A stretch of DNA of 53,480 nt, taken from an uncultured Acidimicrobiales bacterium (GTDB lineage: Bacteria > Actinomycetota > Acidimicrobiia > Acidimicrobiales > SHLQ01). Position 1 is the first letter of the stretch. Every line of letters begins with the position of its first letter. Location: the NCBI GenBank assembly GCA_964570495.1, contig CAZMYN010000001.1, positions 1 to 53,480 of the forward strand, written 5' to 3'. The translations under genes were made by a program, and so were the position numbers. The notes below the pieces were generated by a model. The model saw nothing but the letters and a program-made list of their open reading frames with translations. It had not been told where the DNA came from and did not search any database. Positions 14,719-43,883 of the stretch are shown here, one piece after another.

Positions 14719-15891
14719 GTGCTCCACATATTCGACACTTCACAGTCGATGGTCGTTCCCTTTGAGCCTGGCCCGATCGTTCGGATGTATATCTGCGGGA
14801 TAACGCCCTATGACTCGACCCATCTCGGACACGCCAGCACCTATCTGACCTACGACCTGCTCATTCGGCGACTCGAAGACCTCGGCCACGAGGTACAGAT
14901 GGTTCGCAACGTCACCGATGTCGACGATTCGATCCTGCCAAAGGCACGCGAACTCGGAATCGACTTCCTCGAACTTGCCGCCACCGAGATGGCTCGCTTT
15001 CACGGTGACATGGAAGCGCTCAACACGCGGCCACCCATCGCTGAGCCGCGCGCGACCGAGTCCATCGAACCAATCGTCGACCTCATCGAGCGCCTGCGAG
15101 ACGAGGGGCACACCTACACCAAGGAAGGCATTACCTGGTTCGACGTATCGACCACACCCGAATTTGGTCGGCTCTCCGGATACGCCGAAGACACCATGTT
15201 GACACTCGCCGAGGAGCGAGGCGGCACTCCCGACGATGTTCGACAACGCAACCCGCTCGACTTCATCTTGTGGCAGCCCTCCGCCGACGACGAACCGTCT
15301 TGGGAGTCTCCGTTTGGTACGGGTCGACCGGGCTGGCACATCGAATGCAGCGCCATGAGCTGGGCGCAATTCGGCGAGACTCTCGACATCCACGGCGGAG
15401 GGACCGATCTGATCTTCCCCCACCACGAATGCGAATCGGTGCAATCCGAACGCGGCTACGGAGCGCCGCTCGCTCGGCACTGGATGCACTCGGGGATGGT
15501 TGCGTACCAGGGAACGAAAATGTCGAAATCGCTGGGCAACCTCGTGTTCGTGAGCGATTTGGTTGCCTCCCACAGCCCGCAAGCGGTTCGTCTGGCGCTC
15601 ATGGGTCACCACTATCGCGACGACTGGGAATGGTTCGATGGCGACATCGACGACGGCCAGGAACGGTTCGATCGAATTGTCGCAGCCATCGCCCACGGTG
15701 CCGGACCCGACCCTGAACCCACGTTGGCGGCGGTTCGTGCAGCGCTCGATGACGACCTCGACGCGCCCACGGCACGCGATGCCCTCGACGCCCTCGCCAG
15801 ATCCATCCTCGACGGCGACGATGACAGCCACGCCGACGCTGGTGAAGGCCTCCAACGGGCCAGCGAACTCGTTGGACTCCTGTTCACATGA
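14719..15891 (+). CDS. mshC: cysteine:1D-myo-inosityl 2-amino-2-deoxy-alpha-D-glucopyranoside ligase (mycothiol ligase MshC)
   Basis: 390 aa with a CysRS-like catalytic core but no C-terminal anticodon-binding domain. Motifs: 'MYICGITPYDSTHLGHASTYLTYD' (HIGH), 'AEERGGTPDD', '[22 protein letters not shown]', 'GGGTDLIFPHHE' and 'KMSKSLGN'. This pattern matches MshC as I recall it from mycobacteria. Confidence 0.8.
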   Translation: MLHIFDTSQSMVVPFEPGPIVRMYICGITPYDSTHLGHASTYLTYDLLIRRLEDLGHEVQMVRNVTDVDDSILPKARELGIDFLELAATEMARFHGDMEALNTRPPIAEPRATESIEPIVDLIERLRDEGHTYTKEGITWFDVSTTPEFGRLSGYAEDTMLTLAEERGGTPDDVRQRNPLDFILWQPSADDEPSWESPFGTGRPGWHIECSAMSWAQFGETLDIHGGGTDLIFPHHECESVQSERGYGAPLARHWMHSGMVAYQGTKMSKSLGNLVFVSDLVASHSPQAVRLALMGHHYRDDWEWFDGDIDDGQERFDRIVAAIAHGAGPDPEPTLAAVRAALDDDLDAPTARDALDALARSILDGDDDSHADAGEGLQRASELVGLLFT

Positions 15892-17279
15892 AGATCTTCG
15901 ACACGCTCCAAGACCAACTCGTCGAGTTCGAAACGCGCGTACCTAACGAGGTGTCGCTCTACGCGTGCGGGCCCACCGTCTACAGCCATCCACACCTTGG
16001 ACATGCCCGTCAGTCGATGACCTACGACATCATTCGGCGCTACTTCGAGTGGACCGGCATGACGGTTCGCCATGTCGCGAACATCACCGACATCGATGAC
16101 AACATCATCAACCGCGCCCTGGACGAAGGCTCCACCGAACCGGAGGTGGCTCGGTACTGGGAAGGCGTCTACCTCGATGCAATGGACTCGCTCAACATTC
16201 TGAGGCCGCACGATCAGCCGCATGCAACGGAGTACGTGGCCGAGATGATCGACATGATCTCGGTGCTCGTCGAGAACGGCTCGGCCTACACCACCGACTC
16301 GGGGGTCTATCTGCGGGTCCGTTCTGTCGAGACGTACGGGGCGCTCGTACATCGAACCCCCGACGAACTCGCCGAAGGCGCACGAGCGCGCGTCGAGGTC
16401 GACGAGAAGAAAGAAGACCCCCTCGACTTTGCACTGTGGAAGGCAGCCAAGCCGGGCGAACCCACATGGGATTCGCCATGGGGTCCTGGACGCCCGGGCT
16501 GGCACATCGAGTGCGCAGCGATGAGCCTCGGCCTTCTCGGCGACGGCTTCGACATCCATGGAGGCGGCAGCGACCTCGTCTTTCCCCACCACACGAACGA
16601 ACGTGCAGAGGCGATCGCCGCCGGCCGTGACTTCGCTCGCTACTGGATCCATAACGCGATGCTGAACATCGGCGGCGAGAAGATGTCGAAGTCGCTCAAC
16701 AACTTCAAGACCATCCAGAACCTTCTCGACGAAGACCCCTTGAACGCGAGGGCCCTCCGGTTGCTGTTGCTCCGCACCCACTATCGCAAGACCCTCGAGA
16801 TCAATCCCGAGGTCATGGCCGACGCCCGCGAGGGCATCAAACGAATCGACGCCATGGCCCGCAAGGCTTCCGCGAACGGAGTCGACGTGACGAGCACCGA
16901 TCGCGACGCCGCCGCGATCGCTCGATTCCGAGAAGCTATGGACCGAGATTTCGGAACCCCCGACGCACTGGCCGTTGTCTTCGACATGGTTCGCCAGGCA
17001 AACAGTGCGCTCGACGGTGATGACGGCGCCGGTCAGGCCACCGCATTCGCACTCACCGCGCTCGAATTGGCCAACGTGTTGGGCCTGGCGGTCGCTATCG
17101 GCAGCGACGACCCAGCAGCTGGGGCCGGCGATGCCGAGATCGAGGCACTGGTGGCTGCGCGAACCGAAGCCAAGGCCAACAAGGACTTCGCCGAAGCCGA
17201 TCGCATCCGTGACGAGCTAGCAGCCCAAGGCATCACGATCGAAGACACCGCCAATGGCCCCCTCTGGTACACGAACTAG
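15888..17279 (+). CDS. cysS: cysteine--tRNA ligase
   Basis: 463 aa. Motifs: '[24 protein letters not shown]' (HIGH), '[35 protein letters not shown]', 'KMSKSLNN', plus a full C-terminal helical/anticodon-binding extension. The ATG overlaps the mshC stop (ATGA). Confidence 0.95.
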
Positions 17280-42851: not shown

Positions 42852-43514
42852 ATGAATATCGAGTCAGTCCCTCGAGAGTCAGAGACGCTCGACAGGTCCG
42901 AGCAAGAAACAAGCGAGGTCGTGCCCGAAACCGAGGCGAGTTCAGCGGGACCTGCGCTGGATTGGTTTGAGGCAAAGTCGAACTCGGGTTTCGAACGCCC
43001 AACCGAACTTCCCGACGGGGATGCCCACCTTCACGTCGAACGAACCTTTGTGTTCGCCGACCTCTCCGGCTTCACTCAATACACCCGTGAGAATGGCCCG
43101 CACGAAGCCGTAAAGCTGCTCGGTGAGTTTCGGCGAATCGCGCGAAACGTGGCAGCCAAGCGCGGCGTGCGGGTCGCGAAATGGCTTGGCGATGGCGTGA
43201 TGATCGTCGGCGTTGAACCAACGGCGGCCATTGCGTTCGGCGCGCACCTGATCCACCACTTCAGCCCGACTGAACTCAACGTGCGAGTCGGCCTTGCAAG
43301 CGGCATTGCGCTGCTCTTCGAGGGCGACGATTACATTGGCGAACCGGTGAACCTCGCCGCCAAGCTGTGCGCTGCAGCCCAACCCGATGAAATCCTCGGA
43401 ACGTGCGAACTTGAGGATCTACCGGACTGGGTGGTCGCTCAGGACGCGGTGAGCGTGTCGATCAAAGACATTGGCCTTATCGGCGACATCCATCGCCTCG
43501 TGCCGCACATCTAG
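42852..43514 (+). CDS. class III adenylate/guanylate cyclase domain protein
   Basis: 'RTFVFADLSGFTQYT' and 'KWLGDGVMIVG' carry the two metal-binding Asp contexts. 'VRVGLASGIALLFEGDDYIGEPVNLAAKL' is also present. An acidic N-terminal extension precedes the domain. Confidence 0.85.
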   Translation: MNIESVPRESETLDRSEQETSEVVPETEASSAGPALDWFEAKSNSGFERPTELPDGDAHLHVERTFVFADLSGFTQYTRENGPHEAVKLLGEFRRIARNVAAKRGVRVAKWLGDGVMIVGVEPTAAIAFGAHLIHHFSPTELNVRVGLASGIALLFEGDDYIGEPVNLAAKLCAAAQPDEILGTCELEDLPDWVVAQDAVSVSIKDIGLIGDIHRLVPHI

Positions 43515-43539
43515 CTTCTCGGCGAGAATCGCAGAGAGA

Positions 43540-43842
43540 TCAGTGGCTACAGCTGGGCCCGTGTTCGTGATTGATGTCGACGTCGATCTTCTTGCGAACG
43601 CCTCGGCGAACGTCGAGTTGAACCGAGCTTGCATACCCCATGAGGTTCGGGGCTACGTGAATCTTGACTCCCTCGCGATGCATGACGCGGTACGGGGAGA
43701 GGTTCTTGCCTTTGAGATGCATGTCGACCGACACGTCAAATTTGGTGCGTCCTCAACCAATCGGTGGGACGAAGTCGATTGCGGCTACGCCGCCCCGCTT
43801 CTTTATGAGCGATATGGCGTCAGGTGTAAGGAAGAGTTCCAT
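43540..43842 (-). CDS. ~100-codon HesB/IscA-like small protein interrupted by one in-frame TGA (candidate selenocysteine codon; alternatively a pseudogene or two fragments)
   Basis: ATG 43842 gives MELFLTPDAISLIKKRGGVAAIDFVPPIG, then TGA (43755-43753), then GRTKFDVSVDMHLKGKNLSPYRVMHREGVKIHVAPNLMGYASSVQLDVRRGVRKKIDVDINHEHGPSCSH*, all in one frame. The ORF track lists only the distal 64 codons. Confidence 0.45.
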
Positions 43843-43883
43843 TGGTTCAGTAACCCAGGTTAGTTGAGGGAGATTCCGTACAA

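What the first reader, a model, noticed from the sequence alone, without database searches (positions are those of the whole stretch)
43540..43842. In-frame TGA in a ~100-codon HesB/IscA-like ORF: candidate selenoprotein
**Seen in sequence**
- On the minus strand, ATG 43842 opens 29 sense codons (MELFLTPDAISLIKKRGGVAAIDFVPPIG).
- A single TGA follows at 43755-43753.
- Another 70 sense codons follow in the same frame (GRTKFDVSVDMHLKGKNLSPYRVMHREGVKIHVAPNLMGYASSVQLDVRRGVRKKIDVDINHEHGPSCSH*).
- The ATG lies 41 nt after the upstream lipoprotein gene's stop.
- Eleven nt after the UGA the mRNA can form a small hairpin, AUUUGAC-GUGUCG-GUCGA(C)AU (43741-43721). It has a G/U-containing apical loop and a G-U pair that exists only on this strand. 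Its position is compatible with a bacterial SECIS, but the stem is weak.

**Inference**
- The joined product has the layout of small HesB/IscA-like proteins: an N-terminal 'x-L-T-x-x-A-x-x-x-I-K-x-x-G-G' strand-helix, then a G-C-x-G metal/redox loop, then 'GVK(I/V)xV'.
- The TGA sits where the conserved Cys of that loop would be (IG-U-G).
- From memory, there is a ~100-aa family annotated as a 'CC/Se motif (seleno)protein' with this appearance. I cannot verify that here.
- Selenocysteine use is uncommon in Actinobacteria, which makes either outcome informative.
Basis: partly seen in the sequence, partly recalled or inferred. Interest (0 to 1): 0.7.

Follow-up and report, generated by a model that had tools for sequence, protein, structure and literature searches.

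The report
Unannotated selenoprotein gene, HesB/IscA fold
This small gene, which gene finders cut in two at an in-frame TGA, is almost certainly one 100-residue selenocysteine-containing protein with the fold of iron-sulfur carrier proteins; it belongs to a large, mostly unannotated branch of an already catalogued selenoprotein family.

Summary
In detail: on the minus strand, ATG 43842 is followed by 29 codons, TGA 43755-43753, 70 codons, and the stop at 43542-43540. The TGA is not an error or a pseudogene lesion. It is identical in three independent assemblies and conserved at codon 30 in 23 distinct sequences, from Acidimicrobiales to Chloroflexi. Both halves are under equal purifying selection (pN/pS about 0.25). 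Codons 31-36, which no start codon can reach except through the TGA, change only synonymously. Full-length Cys-type homologues carry Cys at exactly this column.

A SECIS-type hairpin follows the UGA: a 6-bp stem capped by a GGUC loop, 23 nt downstream, the same loop as in E. coli fdhF. It is frozen at wobble positions and has one covarying pair.

The protein is a divergent relative of NCBIfam NF041239, 'CC/Se motif family (seleno)protein': 25 bits against a cutoff of 40, which two orthologues reach. It has an IscA/HesB fold (hhalign 86%; Foldseek to IscA and SufA). Sec30 aligns with IscA Cys35, and Cys98 is also invariant.

Sec machinery could not be checked. As a by-product, some relatives also replace Cys98 with Sec.

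The parts
43540..43842 (-). Complete selenoprotein coding sequence: 100 codons plus stop. Sec is at codon 30. Gene callers split it into 29-aa and 60/64-aa pieces.
   Evidence: the callers' 29 aa + 60 aa split. Full-length orthologues. pN/pS is 0.26 for codons 2-29 and 0.25 for codons 45-90. Full-length Cys-type homologues.
43753..43755 (-). UGA codon 30, read as selenocysteine (context PPIG-U-GRTK).
   Evidence: TGA is at this codon in 23 distinct sequences. It aligns with an invariant Cys in P0112, P0139, P0140 and P0151. C30A costs about 5 bits on NF041239. TGA is otherwise an ordinary stop in the window, ending 11 of 31 long open stretches.
43712..43756 (-). Bacterial SECIS element. The lower stem, 43756-43751 paired with 43717-43712, includes the UGA. 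An internal loop separates it from the upper stem-loop.
   Evidence: RNAalifold consensus. 99.6% of cells are paired in 20 sequences, against 27-65% for slid controls. Free energy from the UGA is -9.4 kcal/mol. The Gly29 GGT and Leu43 CTC codons are fixed in 16/16 close orthologues.
43720..43735 (-). SECIS upper hairpin CGUGUC-GGUC-GACAUG. The apical loop GGUC is at 43729-43726, 23 nt after the UGA. The hairpin is translated as (D)VSVD(M).
   Evidence: Codons V37, S38, V39 and D40 each use one codon in 16/16 sequences, while all 20 other conserved codons of 4-fold or higher degeneracy vary. The closing pair is CG:16, GC:2, AU:1, UG:1. E. coli fdhF has the same GGUC loop at +22. The hairpin meets the bSECIS consensus criteria (criteria from PMC13188914).
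43549..43551 (-). Cys98 codon, the second invariant Cys/Sec position and the likely partner of Sec30.
   Evidence: Invariant in alignments A4, A8 and A11. Replaced by TGA-x-H-stop in three distant lineages.
43543..43569 (-). C-terminal His-rich tail H92-E-H94-G-P-S-C98-S-H100, a candidate metal-binding or redox tail. By position it corresponds to the C-x-C tail of IscA.
   Evidence: Nearly invariant within the Acidimicrobiales clade. Variable in distant subfamilies. The correspondence with IscA C99/C101 is an inference; the hhalign alignment stops at residue 90.

Best explanation
This is one gene encoding a 100-residue selenoprotein.

Translation. When the ribosome reaches UGA30, SelB carrying Sec-tRNA(Sec) is recruited by the hairpin 23 nt downstream (a 6-bp stem with a GGUC loop), and selenocysteine is inserted. 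The hairpin is then unwound and translated as V-S-V-D. That dual role is why both its nucleotides and this peptide are frozen across the family. (The UGA, the hairpin and its conservation are shown. SelB dependence is inferred from the match to the published SECIS consensus and to the fdhF loop.)

Product. The protein has the A-type carrier (HesB/IscA) fold, with Sec30 in the loop that holds IscA Cys35 and an invariant Cys98 in a flexible His-rich C-terminal tail. (The fold and the Sec30-Cys35 alignment are shown for the family. Proximity of residues 30 and 98 is inferred.) I propose that Sec30 and Cys98, often together with His100, His94 and His92, form the active site. That site is either a chalcogen/His ligand set that binds and hands over a metal ion or Fe-S cluster, as A-type carriers do, or a selenenylsulfide redox pair. 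I lean slightly toward the metal or cluster carrier.

Placement. The gene is monocistronic, sits at a fixed chromosomal locus in Acidimicrobiales, and belongs to a large, almost entirely Sec-using branch related to NCBIfam NF041239.
For: Real, conserved TGA: identical in 3 independent assemblies, and at codon 30 in 23 distinct sequences, from 87% down to about 45% identity, including Chloroflexi.

Translated through:
- pN/pS is 0.26 upstream and 0.25 downstream of the TGA.
- Codons 31-34 (G, R, T, K) vary only synonymously, and no start codon lies before V37.
- Cys-type homologues are single polypeptides with Cys at this column.
- An AF2 model of one of them integrates the N-terminal strand and helix into the fold.

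SECIS:
- The consensus fold has 99.6% of cells paired, against 27-65% when slid. The closing pair shows CG/GC/AU/UG.
- All 5 single-codon sites among 25 degenerate conserved codons lie inside the element (5/8 inside against 0/17 outside, Fisher p about 0.001 by my arithmetic).
- It has the same GGUC loop as E. coli fdhF, at +27 against +22.
- It satisfies the loop, stem, G[G/U], spacing and energy criteria.
- Cys-type homologues relax the VSVDT peptide to VSVVT, IALDT, VVADL and VSVST.

Family: NF041239 is the only hit for all members. L014 scores 41.9, L015 40.0 and P0151 40.1 bits against a cutoff of 40; the window scores 25.1. C30A costs 5 bits.

Fold: hhalign against E. coli IscA/SufA/ErpA gives 86.4% probability, P=4.7e-6, over 86 columns. 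The best Foldseek matches are IscA 1x0g (E=2e-5, TM 0.61), SufA 2d2a and IscA 1r94/1s98.

Both key residues interchange Sec and Cys across the family. TGA is a normal stop elsewhere in the window. Sec decoding is documented in the class Acidimicrobiia (bioRxiv 10.64898/2026.04.03.716425) and in other Actinobacteria (PMC5029168).
Against: - No tRNA-Sec, selA, selB or selD was found. Only 433 kb of related DNA could be examined, and none of it is expected to hold them. Sec-decoding capacity of this organism is therefore unproven.
- No Rfam SECIS model matches. Bacterial SECIS elements are poorly represented in Rfam.
- Most stem pairs never vary, so support for the structure rests on frozen wobble positions plus a single covarying pair.
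- The single-sequence fold is not more stable than shuffles (z = -0.1).
- The window protein is below the NF041239 cutoff and has no Pfam hit.
- The structure model is of a 32%-identical Cys-type relative, not of this protein.
- Function (metal or cluster carrier against redox) is inference only. Gene context gives no help: hemE, PPO, a cyclase-like gene, a lipoprotein and Lnt, with the gene's orientation flipping between genomes.
Confidence: 0.86

Rival explanations
1. The UGA is read through or recoded, but not as selenocysteine. Examples are near-cognate Trp/Cys/Arg insertion, or a tRNA that decodes UGA as Cys. The hairpin would then act only as a pause or read-through stimulator.
For: Sec machinery was not demonstrated for this genome. 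Translation through the UGA is shown, but the inserted residue is not.
Against: The hairpin matches the SelB-type SECIS consensus and carries the fdhF GGUC loop at a comparable distance. The site aligns with Cys in homologues and with a Cys/Sec column of a curated selenoprotein family. TGA is used as an ordinary stop in the same window. The same family uses a second UGA with its own G-U-loop hairpin at the other conserved Cys.
Confidence: 0.07
2. The TGA is a true stop. The locus would then be a pseudogene, or two separate small genes: a 29-aa peptide and a 60-64-aa protein starting at GTG 43734 or ATG 43722, as gene callers annotate it.
For: Every public gene call splits it this way. A GTG and an ATG lie just downstream of the TGA.
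Against: The frame and the exact spacing are preserved in 23 sequences. Codons 31-36, between the TGA and the first possible start, are conserved as amino acids with synonymous changes. Both halves show the same pN/pS. Cys-type homologues fuse the two halves with Cys at the junction. In the structural model, the N-terminal 29 residues form the first strand and helix of the IscA fold.
Confidence: 0.02
3. A rival on function only. The protein is a selenol/thiol oxidoreductase that cycles a Sec30-Cys98 selenenylsulfide, not a metal or Fe-S carrier. The IscA fold would be just the scaffold.
For: Only positions 30 and 98 are invariant across the whole family, and both interchange Cys and Sec. This is typical of redox pairs. 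The His residues of the tail are lost in some subfamilies, such as L014, L015 and L026. Most bacterial selenoproteins are redox proteins (PMC13188914).
Against: The closest structural relatives, IscA and SufA, use the equivalent Cys residues as cluster ligands (1x0g is IscA with [2Fe-2S]). The H-x-H-G-P-x-C-x-H tail of most members looks like a metal site. No thioredoxin-fold partner or reductase is linked in the neighbourhood.
Confidence: 0.4

Closest known systems
NCBIfam NF041239 'CC/Se motif family (seleno)protein' (Moor_selen_rel; the hypothetical selenoprotein first predicted in Moorella thermoacetica; PMC13188914 Table 1)
   Same: It is the only significant family hit, for every member tested, aligned end to end (profile positions 1-85/89 of 91). 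The size is the same, about 90-100 aa. The profile favours Cys/Sec at the column of Sec30. Two orthologues (L014, L015) and one Cys-type relative (P0151) reach the curated cutoff.
   Different: The window protein scores 25.1 bits against the cutoff of 40. The core profile also favours Cys at columns 27 and 31 (+2.2 and +4.1 bits in a Cys scan), in line with the listed 'CxxU'/'CC' motif. This clade has Pro27 and Gly31, so a lone Sec flanked by Gly. The table lists one Sec per protein, whereas some relatives found here appear to have two.
A-type Fe-S carrier proteins IscA/SufA/ErpA (Pfam PF01521 Fe-S_biosyn; PDB 1x0g, 2d2a, 1r94, 1s98)
   Same: The fold is the same: hhalign 86% over 86 columns, and the best Foldseek matches have TM about 0.6. 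Sec30 aligns with the first ligand Cys (IscA Cys35). The GVK(I/V)xV strand aligns. A Cys-bearing flexible C-terminal tail is present in both.
   Different: There is no Pfam hit for the window protein, and the best relative scores 18.7 bits against the 26.3 gathering score. The tail is H-x-H-G-P-x-C-x-H, not C-G-C-G-x-S-F. Sec replaces Cys at the first ligand. The gene is not next to isc/suf genes.
HesB-like selenoprotein (TIGR01911, motif UxGP; PMC13188914 Table 1, PMC1794560)
   Same: Both are small selenoproteins related to the HesB domain. From my own knowledge of the TIGR01911 description, not checked here, its Sec aligns with the conserved Cys of that domain, as Sec30 does with IscA Cys35 here.
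   Different: TIGR01911 gives no hit to any of 15 members even at E<=10. The local motif is U-G-R-T, not UxGP. It is a separate family.
E. coli fdhF SECIS (SelB-binding hairpin)
   Same: The apical GGUC loop is the same. Both have a short upper stem and a lower stem that starts at the UGA. Both lie inside the coding sequence directly downstream of the UGA (read from NC_000913.3).
   Different: The loop is at +27..+30 here and at +22..+25 in fdhF. The upper stem here is a perfect 6 bp without the bulged U of fdhF (the role of that bulge is from my own knowledge). One relative, L025, has the loop 3 nt closer.
'UXX-star' selenoproteins (NF041114, NF041211; Haft & Tolstoy 2025, listed in PMC13188914)
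   Same: This applies to the double-Sec relatives only. Their second Sec sits three residues from the C-terminus (U-x-H-stop), so its SECIS has to lie past the stop codon.
   Different: These are unrelated protein families. The window gene itself has Cys, not Sec, at this position.

Membership tests
Bacterial selenoprotein gene (Sec-UGA plus bSECIS) | The in-frame UGA is conserved among orthologues, with coding constraint on both sides. | tested here: met
   TGA is at codon 30 in 23 distinct sequences. pN/pS is 0.26 upstream and 0.25 downstream. Only synonymous changes occur in codons 31-34.
Bacterial selenoprotein gene (Sec-UGA plus bSECIS) | Homologues carry Cys aligned to the UGA (Sec/Cys pair). 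| tested here: met
   P0112, P0139, P0140 and P0151 have Cys at the aligned column.
Bacterial selenoprotein gene (Sec-UGA plus bSECIS) | A bSECIS meets the consensus: 3-9 nt apical loop, 4-16 bp upper stem, G in the first two loop positions followed by G/U, 16-37 nt from the UGA, MFE <= -7.5 kcal/mol (PMC13188914 Fig. 2). | tested here: met
   Loop GGUC (4 nt), 6-bp stem, spacing 23 nt. Free energy is -9.4 kcal/mol for the element from the UGA. It is conserved, with one covarying pair.
Bacterial selenoprotein gene (Sec-UGA plus bSECIS) | The genome encodes tRNA-Sec (selC), SelA, SelB and SelD. | not testable with these tools
At class level, Actinomarina (Acidimicrobiia) has all four.
Bacterial selenoprotein gene (Sec-UGA plus bSECIS) | Selenium is demonstrated in the protein (75Se labelling or mass spectrometry). 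| not testable with these tools
   Requires an experiment.
NCBIfam NF041239 CC/Se motif family (seleno)protein | HMM score at or above the curated cutoff (40 bits). | tested here: not met
   The window protein scores 25.1 bits. Orthologues L014 (41.9) and L015 (40.0) and Cys-type P0151 (40.1) do reach it. I therefore treat the window gene as a divergent relative or sister clade, not a member by the curated rule.
NCBIfam NF041239 CC/Se motif family (seleno)protein | Full-length match, with Cys/Sec at the family's conserved column. | tested here: met
   Residues 1-85 match profile positions 1-85 of 91. C30A lowers the score by 5.0 bits in the window protein and 5.3 bits in L014.
NCBIfam NF041239 CC/Se motif family (seleno)protein | A Cys-rich local motif ('CC/Se'; listed as CxxU in PMC13188914). 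| tested here: not met
   The profile rewards Cys at columns 27 (+2.2 bits) and 31 (+4.1 bits). This clade has Pro27 and Gly31, so its motif is PPIG-U-G. No core-family sequence could be retrieved to see which column is Sec there.
A-type Fe-S carrier / HesB domain (Pfam PF01521) | Pfam gathering score (26.3 bits). | tested here: not met
   No hit for the window protein or its 15 orthologues, even at E<=10. Relatives score 18.7 bits (P0151) and 14.1 bits (L037).
A-type Fe-S carrier / HesB domain (Pfam PF01521) | IscA/HesB three-dimensional fold. | tested here: met
   hhalign of the family profile against E. coli IscA/SufA/ErpA gives 86.4% probability, P=4.7e-6. The AF2 model of relative P0151 (pLDDT 86.9) has as best PDB matches 1x0g, 2d2a, 1r94, 1s98, 2apn, 1nwb and 2k4z. 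The model is of a homologue, not of the window protein.
A-type Fe-S carrier / HesB domain (Pfam PF01521) | Three ligand cysteines (IscA C35, C99, C101). | tested here: inconclusive
   Sec30 aligns with C35. Cys98 and His100 sit in an equivalent C-terminal tail, but the alignment ends at residue 90. The third Cys is absent.
HesB-like selenoprotein TIGR01911 | HMM match and UxGP motif. | tested here: not met
   TIGR01911 gives no hit for 15 members at E<=10. The motif here is U-G-R-T.

The most novel reading that the evidence does not exclude
The window gene represents a large branch of the IscA/HesB-fold superfamily that is not in the curated catalogue. The branch has about 95 clusters at 50% identity and spans Acidimicrobiales, Chloroflexi and Planctomycetes. 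It is almost obligately Sec-using, so much so that its SECIS hairpin is fossilised as the peptide motif VSVDT.

In roughly a quarter of the retrieved clusters the partner Cys98 also appears to be replaced by Sec. That Sec would be read from a UGA two codons before the stop, through a second SECIS in the 3' UTR. The result would be a Se/Se (or, in the window gene, Se/S) ligand or redox pair on an Fe-S-carrier scaffold, and would point to a selenium-ligated metal or cluster carrier.
Probability: 0.45. Interest if true: 0.65.

Novelty: new member of a known kind. Interest (0 to 1): 0.5.

Why it matters
Annotation. Every public gene call found for this gene and its retrieved relatives (249 family sequences) is truncated, apart from four full-length Cys-type homologues. 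The curated model that should rescue them (NF041239, cutoff 40) misses most, including this one. Selenoproteomes of Acidimicrobiales, Chloroflexi and other environmental lineages are therefore undercounted.

Biology. The work links a catalogued selenoprotein family of unknown function to the A-type Fe-S carrier fold, and it identifies the two residues that matter, Sec30 and Cys/Sec98. That turns 'hypothetical selenoprotein' into a testable hypothesis: selenium as a ligand or redox centre on an IscA-like scaffold.

Practical marker. The frozen GUGUC-GGUC-GACAC hairpin is a clean, easily searchable SECIS signature for these lineages. The gene itself is a simple indicator that an Acidimicrobiales genome decodes Sec.

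Tried and rejected
- Rfam, at gathering and permissive thresholds: no SECIS family matches. This is uninformative, because bacterial SECIS elements are poorly represented in Rfam.
- Single-sequence folding is not more stable than shuffles (z = -0.1). Only comparative evidence supports the element.
- PDB sequence searches with two family profiles found nothing.
  - I worked around this with the post-TGA segment and with database fragments.
  - The AF2 model of the 70-residue fragment alone was useless (pLDDT 52), so I did not use it.
- The first hhalign, with the shallow clade-only profile, gave only 6.5% probability. It was superseded by the diverse profile (86%).
- L014's 'second TGA' after Cys (GEAC-TGA-NH-TGA) was rejected as a Sec codon. 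Its sister L015 ends AAC-TAA, and no SECIS-like hairpin follows. The window's own terminal TGA has none either.
- A scan of the window for other open-frame TGAs followed by a GGUC hairpin found only two 4-bp hits, both out of frame with the long ORFs that span them. I treated them as noise.
- tblastn with E. coli SelA, SelB and SelD, and tRNA scans, found nothing in the 433 kb held.
- Gene neighbourhood gave no functional lead. Synteny is conserved, but the neighbours are unrelated (hemE, PPO, a cyclase-like gene, a lipoprotein, Lnt), and in distant lineages the neighbours are entirely different.
- No named core NF041239 sequence could be retrieved, so which column is Sec in the Moorella-type proteins remains unknown.
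Full report
OBSERVATION. On the minus strand, ATG 43842 opens 29 sense codons. TGA occupies 43755-43753. Seventy more sense codons follow in frame, up to TGA 43542-43540. The ATG lies 41 nt downstream of the stop of a 483-aa ORF whose N-terminus...LVAAAC, looks like a lipoprotein signal. The same 303 nt, TGA included, are identical in three assemblies from different samples (ERZ23488248, ERZ27295652, ERZ27295769). A sequencing or assembly error is therefore very unlikely. In those assemblies the gene callers produced a 29-aa and a 60-aa gene.

IS THE TGA TRANSLATED? A scan of one genome per species returned 16 loci, nearly all from Acidimicrobiales MAGs.
- All 15 that cover the site have TGA at codon 30, in the context IDF(V/I)PPIG-TGA-GRTK.
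- More distant relatives, down to about 45% identity, also have TGA at codon 30. They include a Chloroflexi MAG and two unnamed metagenomic lineages. That makes 23 distinct sequences in all.
- Mean pN/pS is 0.26 for codons 2-29 and 0.25 for codons 45-90. Both halves therefore evolve as protein under the same constraint.
- Codons 31-34 (G, R, T, K) use 3, 3, 4 and 2 different codons while the amino acid never changes. The first possible restart codon is the GTG of Val37. This stretch can be translated only by reading through the TGA.
- TGA is not reassigned genome-wide. It ends 11 of the 31 long open stretches in the window.

SEC/CYS PAIRS. Two word-indexed searches of 5.8 billion proteins returned only fragments of 70 aa or less. 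An exhaustive profile search of 1.84 billion cluster representatives, using the post-TGA segment, found 99 clusters.
- About 90 of them start with M/V-SVDT, meaning they restart at the GTG immediately after the TGA.
- Four are full-length 100-102 aa proteins (P0112, P0139, P0140, P0151). Each has Cys at the column of the TGA (PPLA-C-GG, RPVG-C-GK, RGVG-C-GK, QPVG-C-GK) and a Cys at the column of Cys98.
This is the classical signature of a selenoprotein family.

SECIS. Downstream of the TGA, the stretch GAC GUG UCG GUC GAC is invariant in the 16 close sequences, apart from one synonymous GAC-to-GAT change in L001.
- Of 25 codons that encode a conserved amino acid with four-fold or higher degeneracy, exactly five use a single codon in all 16 sequences: Gly29, Val37, Ser38, Val39 and Leu43. 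All five lie between 43756 and 43712. The other 20 all vary. That is 5 of 8 inside the element against 0 of 17 outside, p about 0.001 by my arithmetic.
- RNAalifold places these codons in a two-helix element. The upper stem is CGUGUC/GACAUG, capped by GGUC (43735-43720). The lower stem is UUGAGG/UCUCAA and contains the UGA (43756-43751 with 43717-43712). Wobble positions in the internal loop between the stems vary freely.
- On 20 sequences, 99.6% of cells form standard pairs, against 27-65% when the 3' partners are slid. The closing pair of the upper stem occurs as C-G (16), G-C (2), A-U (1) and U-G (1).
- The remaining pairs never vary, so they say nothing either way. The single sequence is not more stable than shuffles.
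- The element meets every criterion of the published bacterial SECIS consensus (PMC13188914): a 4-nt loop beginning G-G, a 6-bp stem, 23 nt between UGA and loop, and -9.4 kcal/mol.
- E. coli fdhF, read here from NC_000913.3, has the same GGUC loop at +22..+25, compared with +27..+30 in the window.
- In L025 the loop is one codon closer and one lower-stem pair is broken. The upper hairpin is therefore the core of the element.
- A natural control exists. The Cys-type homologues need no SECIS, and they relax the encoded peptide VSVDT to VSVVT, IALDT, VVADL and VSVST.
- Rfam has no matching model.

WHAT THE PROTEIN IS. The only significant NCBIfam match is NF041239, 'CC/Se motif family (seleno)protein'.
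- The window protein scores 25.1 bits (E=1.4e-5) over profile positions 1-85 of 91, below the curated cutoff of 40.
- All 15 orthologues match it. The most divergent two reach the cutoff (41.9 and 40.0 bits), as does Cys-type P0151 (40.1).
- Replacing residue 30 by Ala costs 5 bits.
- A Cys scan shows that the profile also rewards Cys at columns 27 (+2.2 bits) and 31 (+4.1 bits). That agrees with the Cys-rich motif the family is named for, listed as CxxU with one Sec in PMC13188914 Table 1. This clade has Pro27 and Gly31, so its motif is a lone Sec between glycines.
By the curated rule the window gene is thus a divergent relative, not a member, although it clearly belongs to the same superfamily.

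FOLD. Pfam gives nothing for the clade. Relatives give repeated sub-threshold, full-length hits to the A-type carrier superfamily: PF01521 at E=0.002 and 0.055, plus SufA, NfuA and TIGR00049.
- A profile of 14 diverse full-length members compared with E. coli IscA/SufA/ErpA gives 86% probability (P=4.7e-6) over 86 columns. Sec30 aligns with IscA Cys35, and GVKIHV with GVKVVV. The shallow clade-only profile had given 6.5%.
- An AlphaFold model of P0151, which is 32% identical to the window protein and alignable end to end, has pLDDT 86.9 and pTM 0.79.
- Its best PDB matches are [2Fe-2S]-IscA 1x0g (E=2e-5, TM 0.61), SufA 2d2a, IscA 1r94 and 1s98, HI1723, AQ_1857 and DsrR.
The 'HesB/IscA-like' reading is therefore supported at fold level. 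The separate HesB-like selenoprotein family TIGR01911 (motif UxGP) does not match.

MECHANISM. Shown: a conserved UGA with a SECIS-consensus hairpin; translation through it; an IscA-type fold; two positions, 30 and 98, that are invariant across the family and that both interchange Sec and Cys. Inferred:
- SelB-dependent Sec insertion.
- Spatial proximity of residue 30 and the C-terminal tail, as in IscA, where C35, C99 and C101 bind the cluster.
- An active site made of Sec30, Cys98 and, in most members, His92, His94 and His100.
I lean toward a metal or Fe-S binding and transfer role (about 0.45) over a selenenylsulfide redox role (about 0.4). Nothing here discriminates firmly between them. 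The neighbourhood does not help. In Acidimicrobiales the gene always lies between a cyclase-like 220-aa gene (or PPO, in L014 and L015, which lack that gene) and a lipoprotein/Lnt, next to hemE and PPO. Its orientation flips between genomes, and distant lineages have unrelated neighbours.

WHAT COULD NOT BE DONE. The key independent test, presence of tRNA-Sec, selA, selB and selD in the same genome, is out of reach. None is in the window or in the 433 kb of related DNA held, and the genome collection could not be scanned again. The literature shows that Sec decoding exists in the class: all 84 complete Actinomarina genomes have it (bioRxiv 10.64898/2026.04.03.716425). It also exists in other Actinobacteria (PMC5029168).

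BY-PRODUCT. Of 249 family sequences retrieved, 241 restart just after the TGA. At the C-terminus, 141 retain a Cys, and 66 end ...H.H..x exactly at the Cys98 column. DNA from three independent lineages of that type shows TGA at that column, followed in frame by two codons and a true stop:
- ...HAPT-TGA-S-H-TGA
- ...HGPT-TGA-A-H-TAG
- ...HQPT-TGA-Q-H-TAG
In each case a 7-9 bp hairpin follows. The stem sequences are unrelated, but the loop is GUU or AGUU, 19-20 nt from the UGA, at -12 to -17 kcal/mol. By contrast, the window's terminal TGA and L014's TGA after Cys have no such hairpin. These look like double-Sec proteins whose second SECIS lies in the 3' UTR. The catalogue entry for NF041239 lists one Sec.

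VERDICT. The finding is right, and it is well supported short of experiment and of the machinery check. It is a new, unannotated and divergent member of a known kind: a catalogued selenoprotein family of unknown function. The added value is the fold assignment, the definition of the SECIS, and the family-wide picture.

Noticed in passing
L033 9376-9640 (Chloroflexi MAG JADFKB010000029.1); L035 10001-10260; L037 4001-4250: Distant relatives have a second in-frame TGA exactly at the Cys98 column, followed by x-His-stop and a strong hairpin with a GUU/AGUU loop 19-20 nt downstream. They appear to be double-Sec proteins with a 3'-UTR SECIS. 66 of 249 retrieved family fragments end at this column.
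   Followed up: partly
window 43515-43883, compared with L001-L015, L022 and L023: The small gene keeps its chromosomal slot between the 220-aa gene (or PPO, in L014 and L015, which lack that gene) and p483/Lnt, but it occurs in both orientations. The window, L002, L003, L014 and L015 are inverted relative to the others. This implies one or more in-place inversions of a segment of about 350-450 bp. No convincing flanking inverted repeats were seen.
   Followed up: partly
L004 (JBLIMK010000082.1, 'Verrucomicrobiales') and L008 (CAXMRH010000173.1, 'Chthoniobacterales'): These two contigs carry part or all of the Acidimicrobiales gene order (hemE-PPO-220aa-Sec gene-p483-Lnt; L008, 2.6 kb, holds only Sec gene-p483-Lnt), with Sec-gene products 77-82% identical to the window's. 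They are probably mis-binned contigs in non-actinobacterial MAGs.
   Followed up: no
window 14719-15891 and 15888-17279 (+ strand): Two adjacent genes both hit the class-I Cys-tRNA synthetase catalytic domain (tRNA-synt_1e): a 380-390 aa protein and a 463-aa CysS with DALR_2/CysS_C. The shorter one may be a mycothiol-type Cys ligase (MshC-like). That is my guess only.
   Followed up: no
P0210 (69-aa fragment on a 2.3-Mb ENA contig): It carries a precomputed Pfam hit, PF28096.1, that is absent from the Pfam copy searchable here. A recent Pfam family may already cover the post-TGA fragment of this family. I could not identify it.
   Followed up: partly
L033 9577-9660: The putative second-SECIS hairpin sequence GCAGCCGCCCGTTGGGCG occurs twice, about 57 nt apart, downstream of the gene. 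The reason is unknown. It could be a duplicated element or a small repeat family.
   Followed up: no
L025 2980-3039: This relative has one codon fewer between the UGA and the hairpin (GGUC at +24, not +27), and a CTG that breaks one lower-stem pair. The upper hairpin is therefore the constrained core, and the UGA-to-loop spacing tolerates a 3-nt change.
   Followed up: yes
window 42852-43514 (+ strand): The convergent 220-aa neighbour has only a weak class-III cyclase-type domain (Pfam Guanylate_cyc, weak; NCBIfam LipJ cyclase region at 39.8 bits against a cutoff of 800). It is conserved next to the Sec gene in most Acidimicrobiales loci but absent in L014 and L015.
   Followed up: partly
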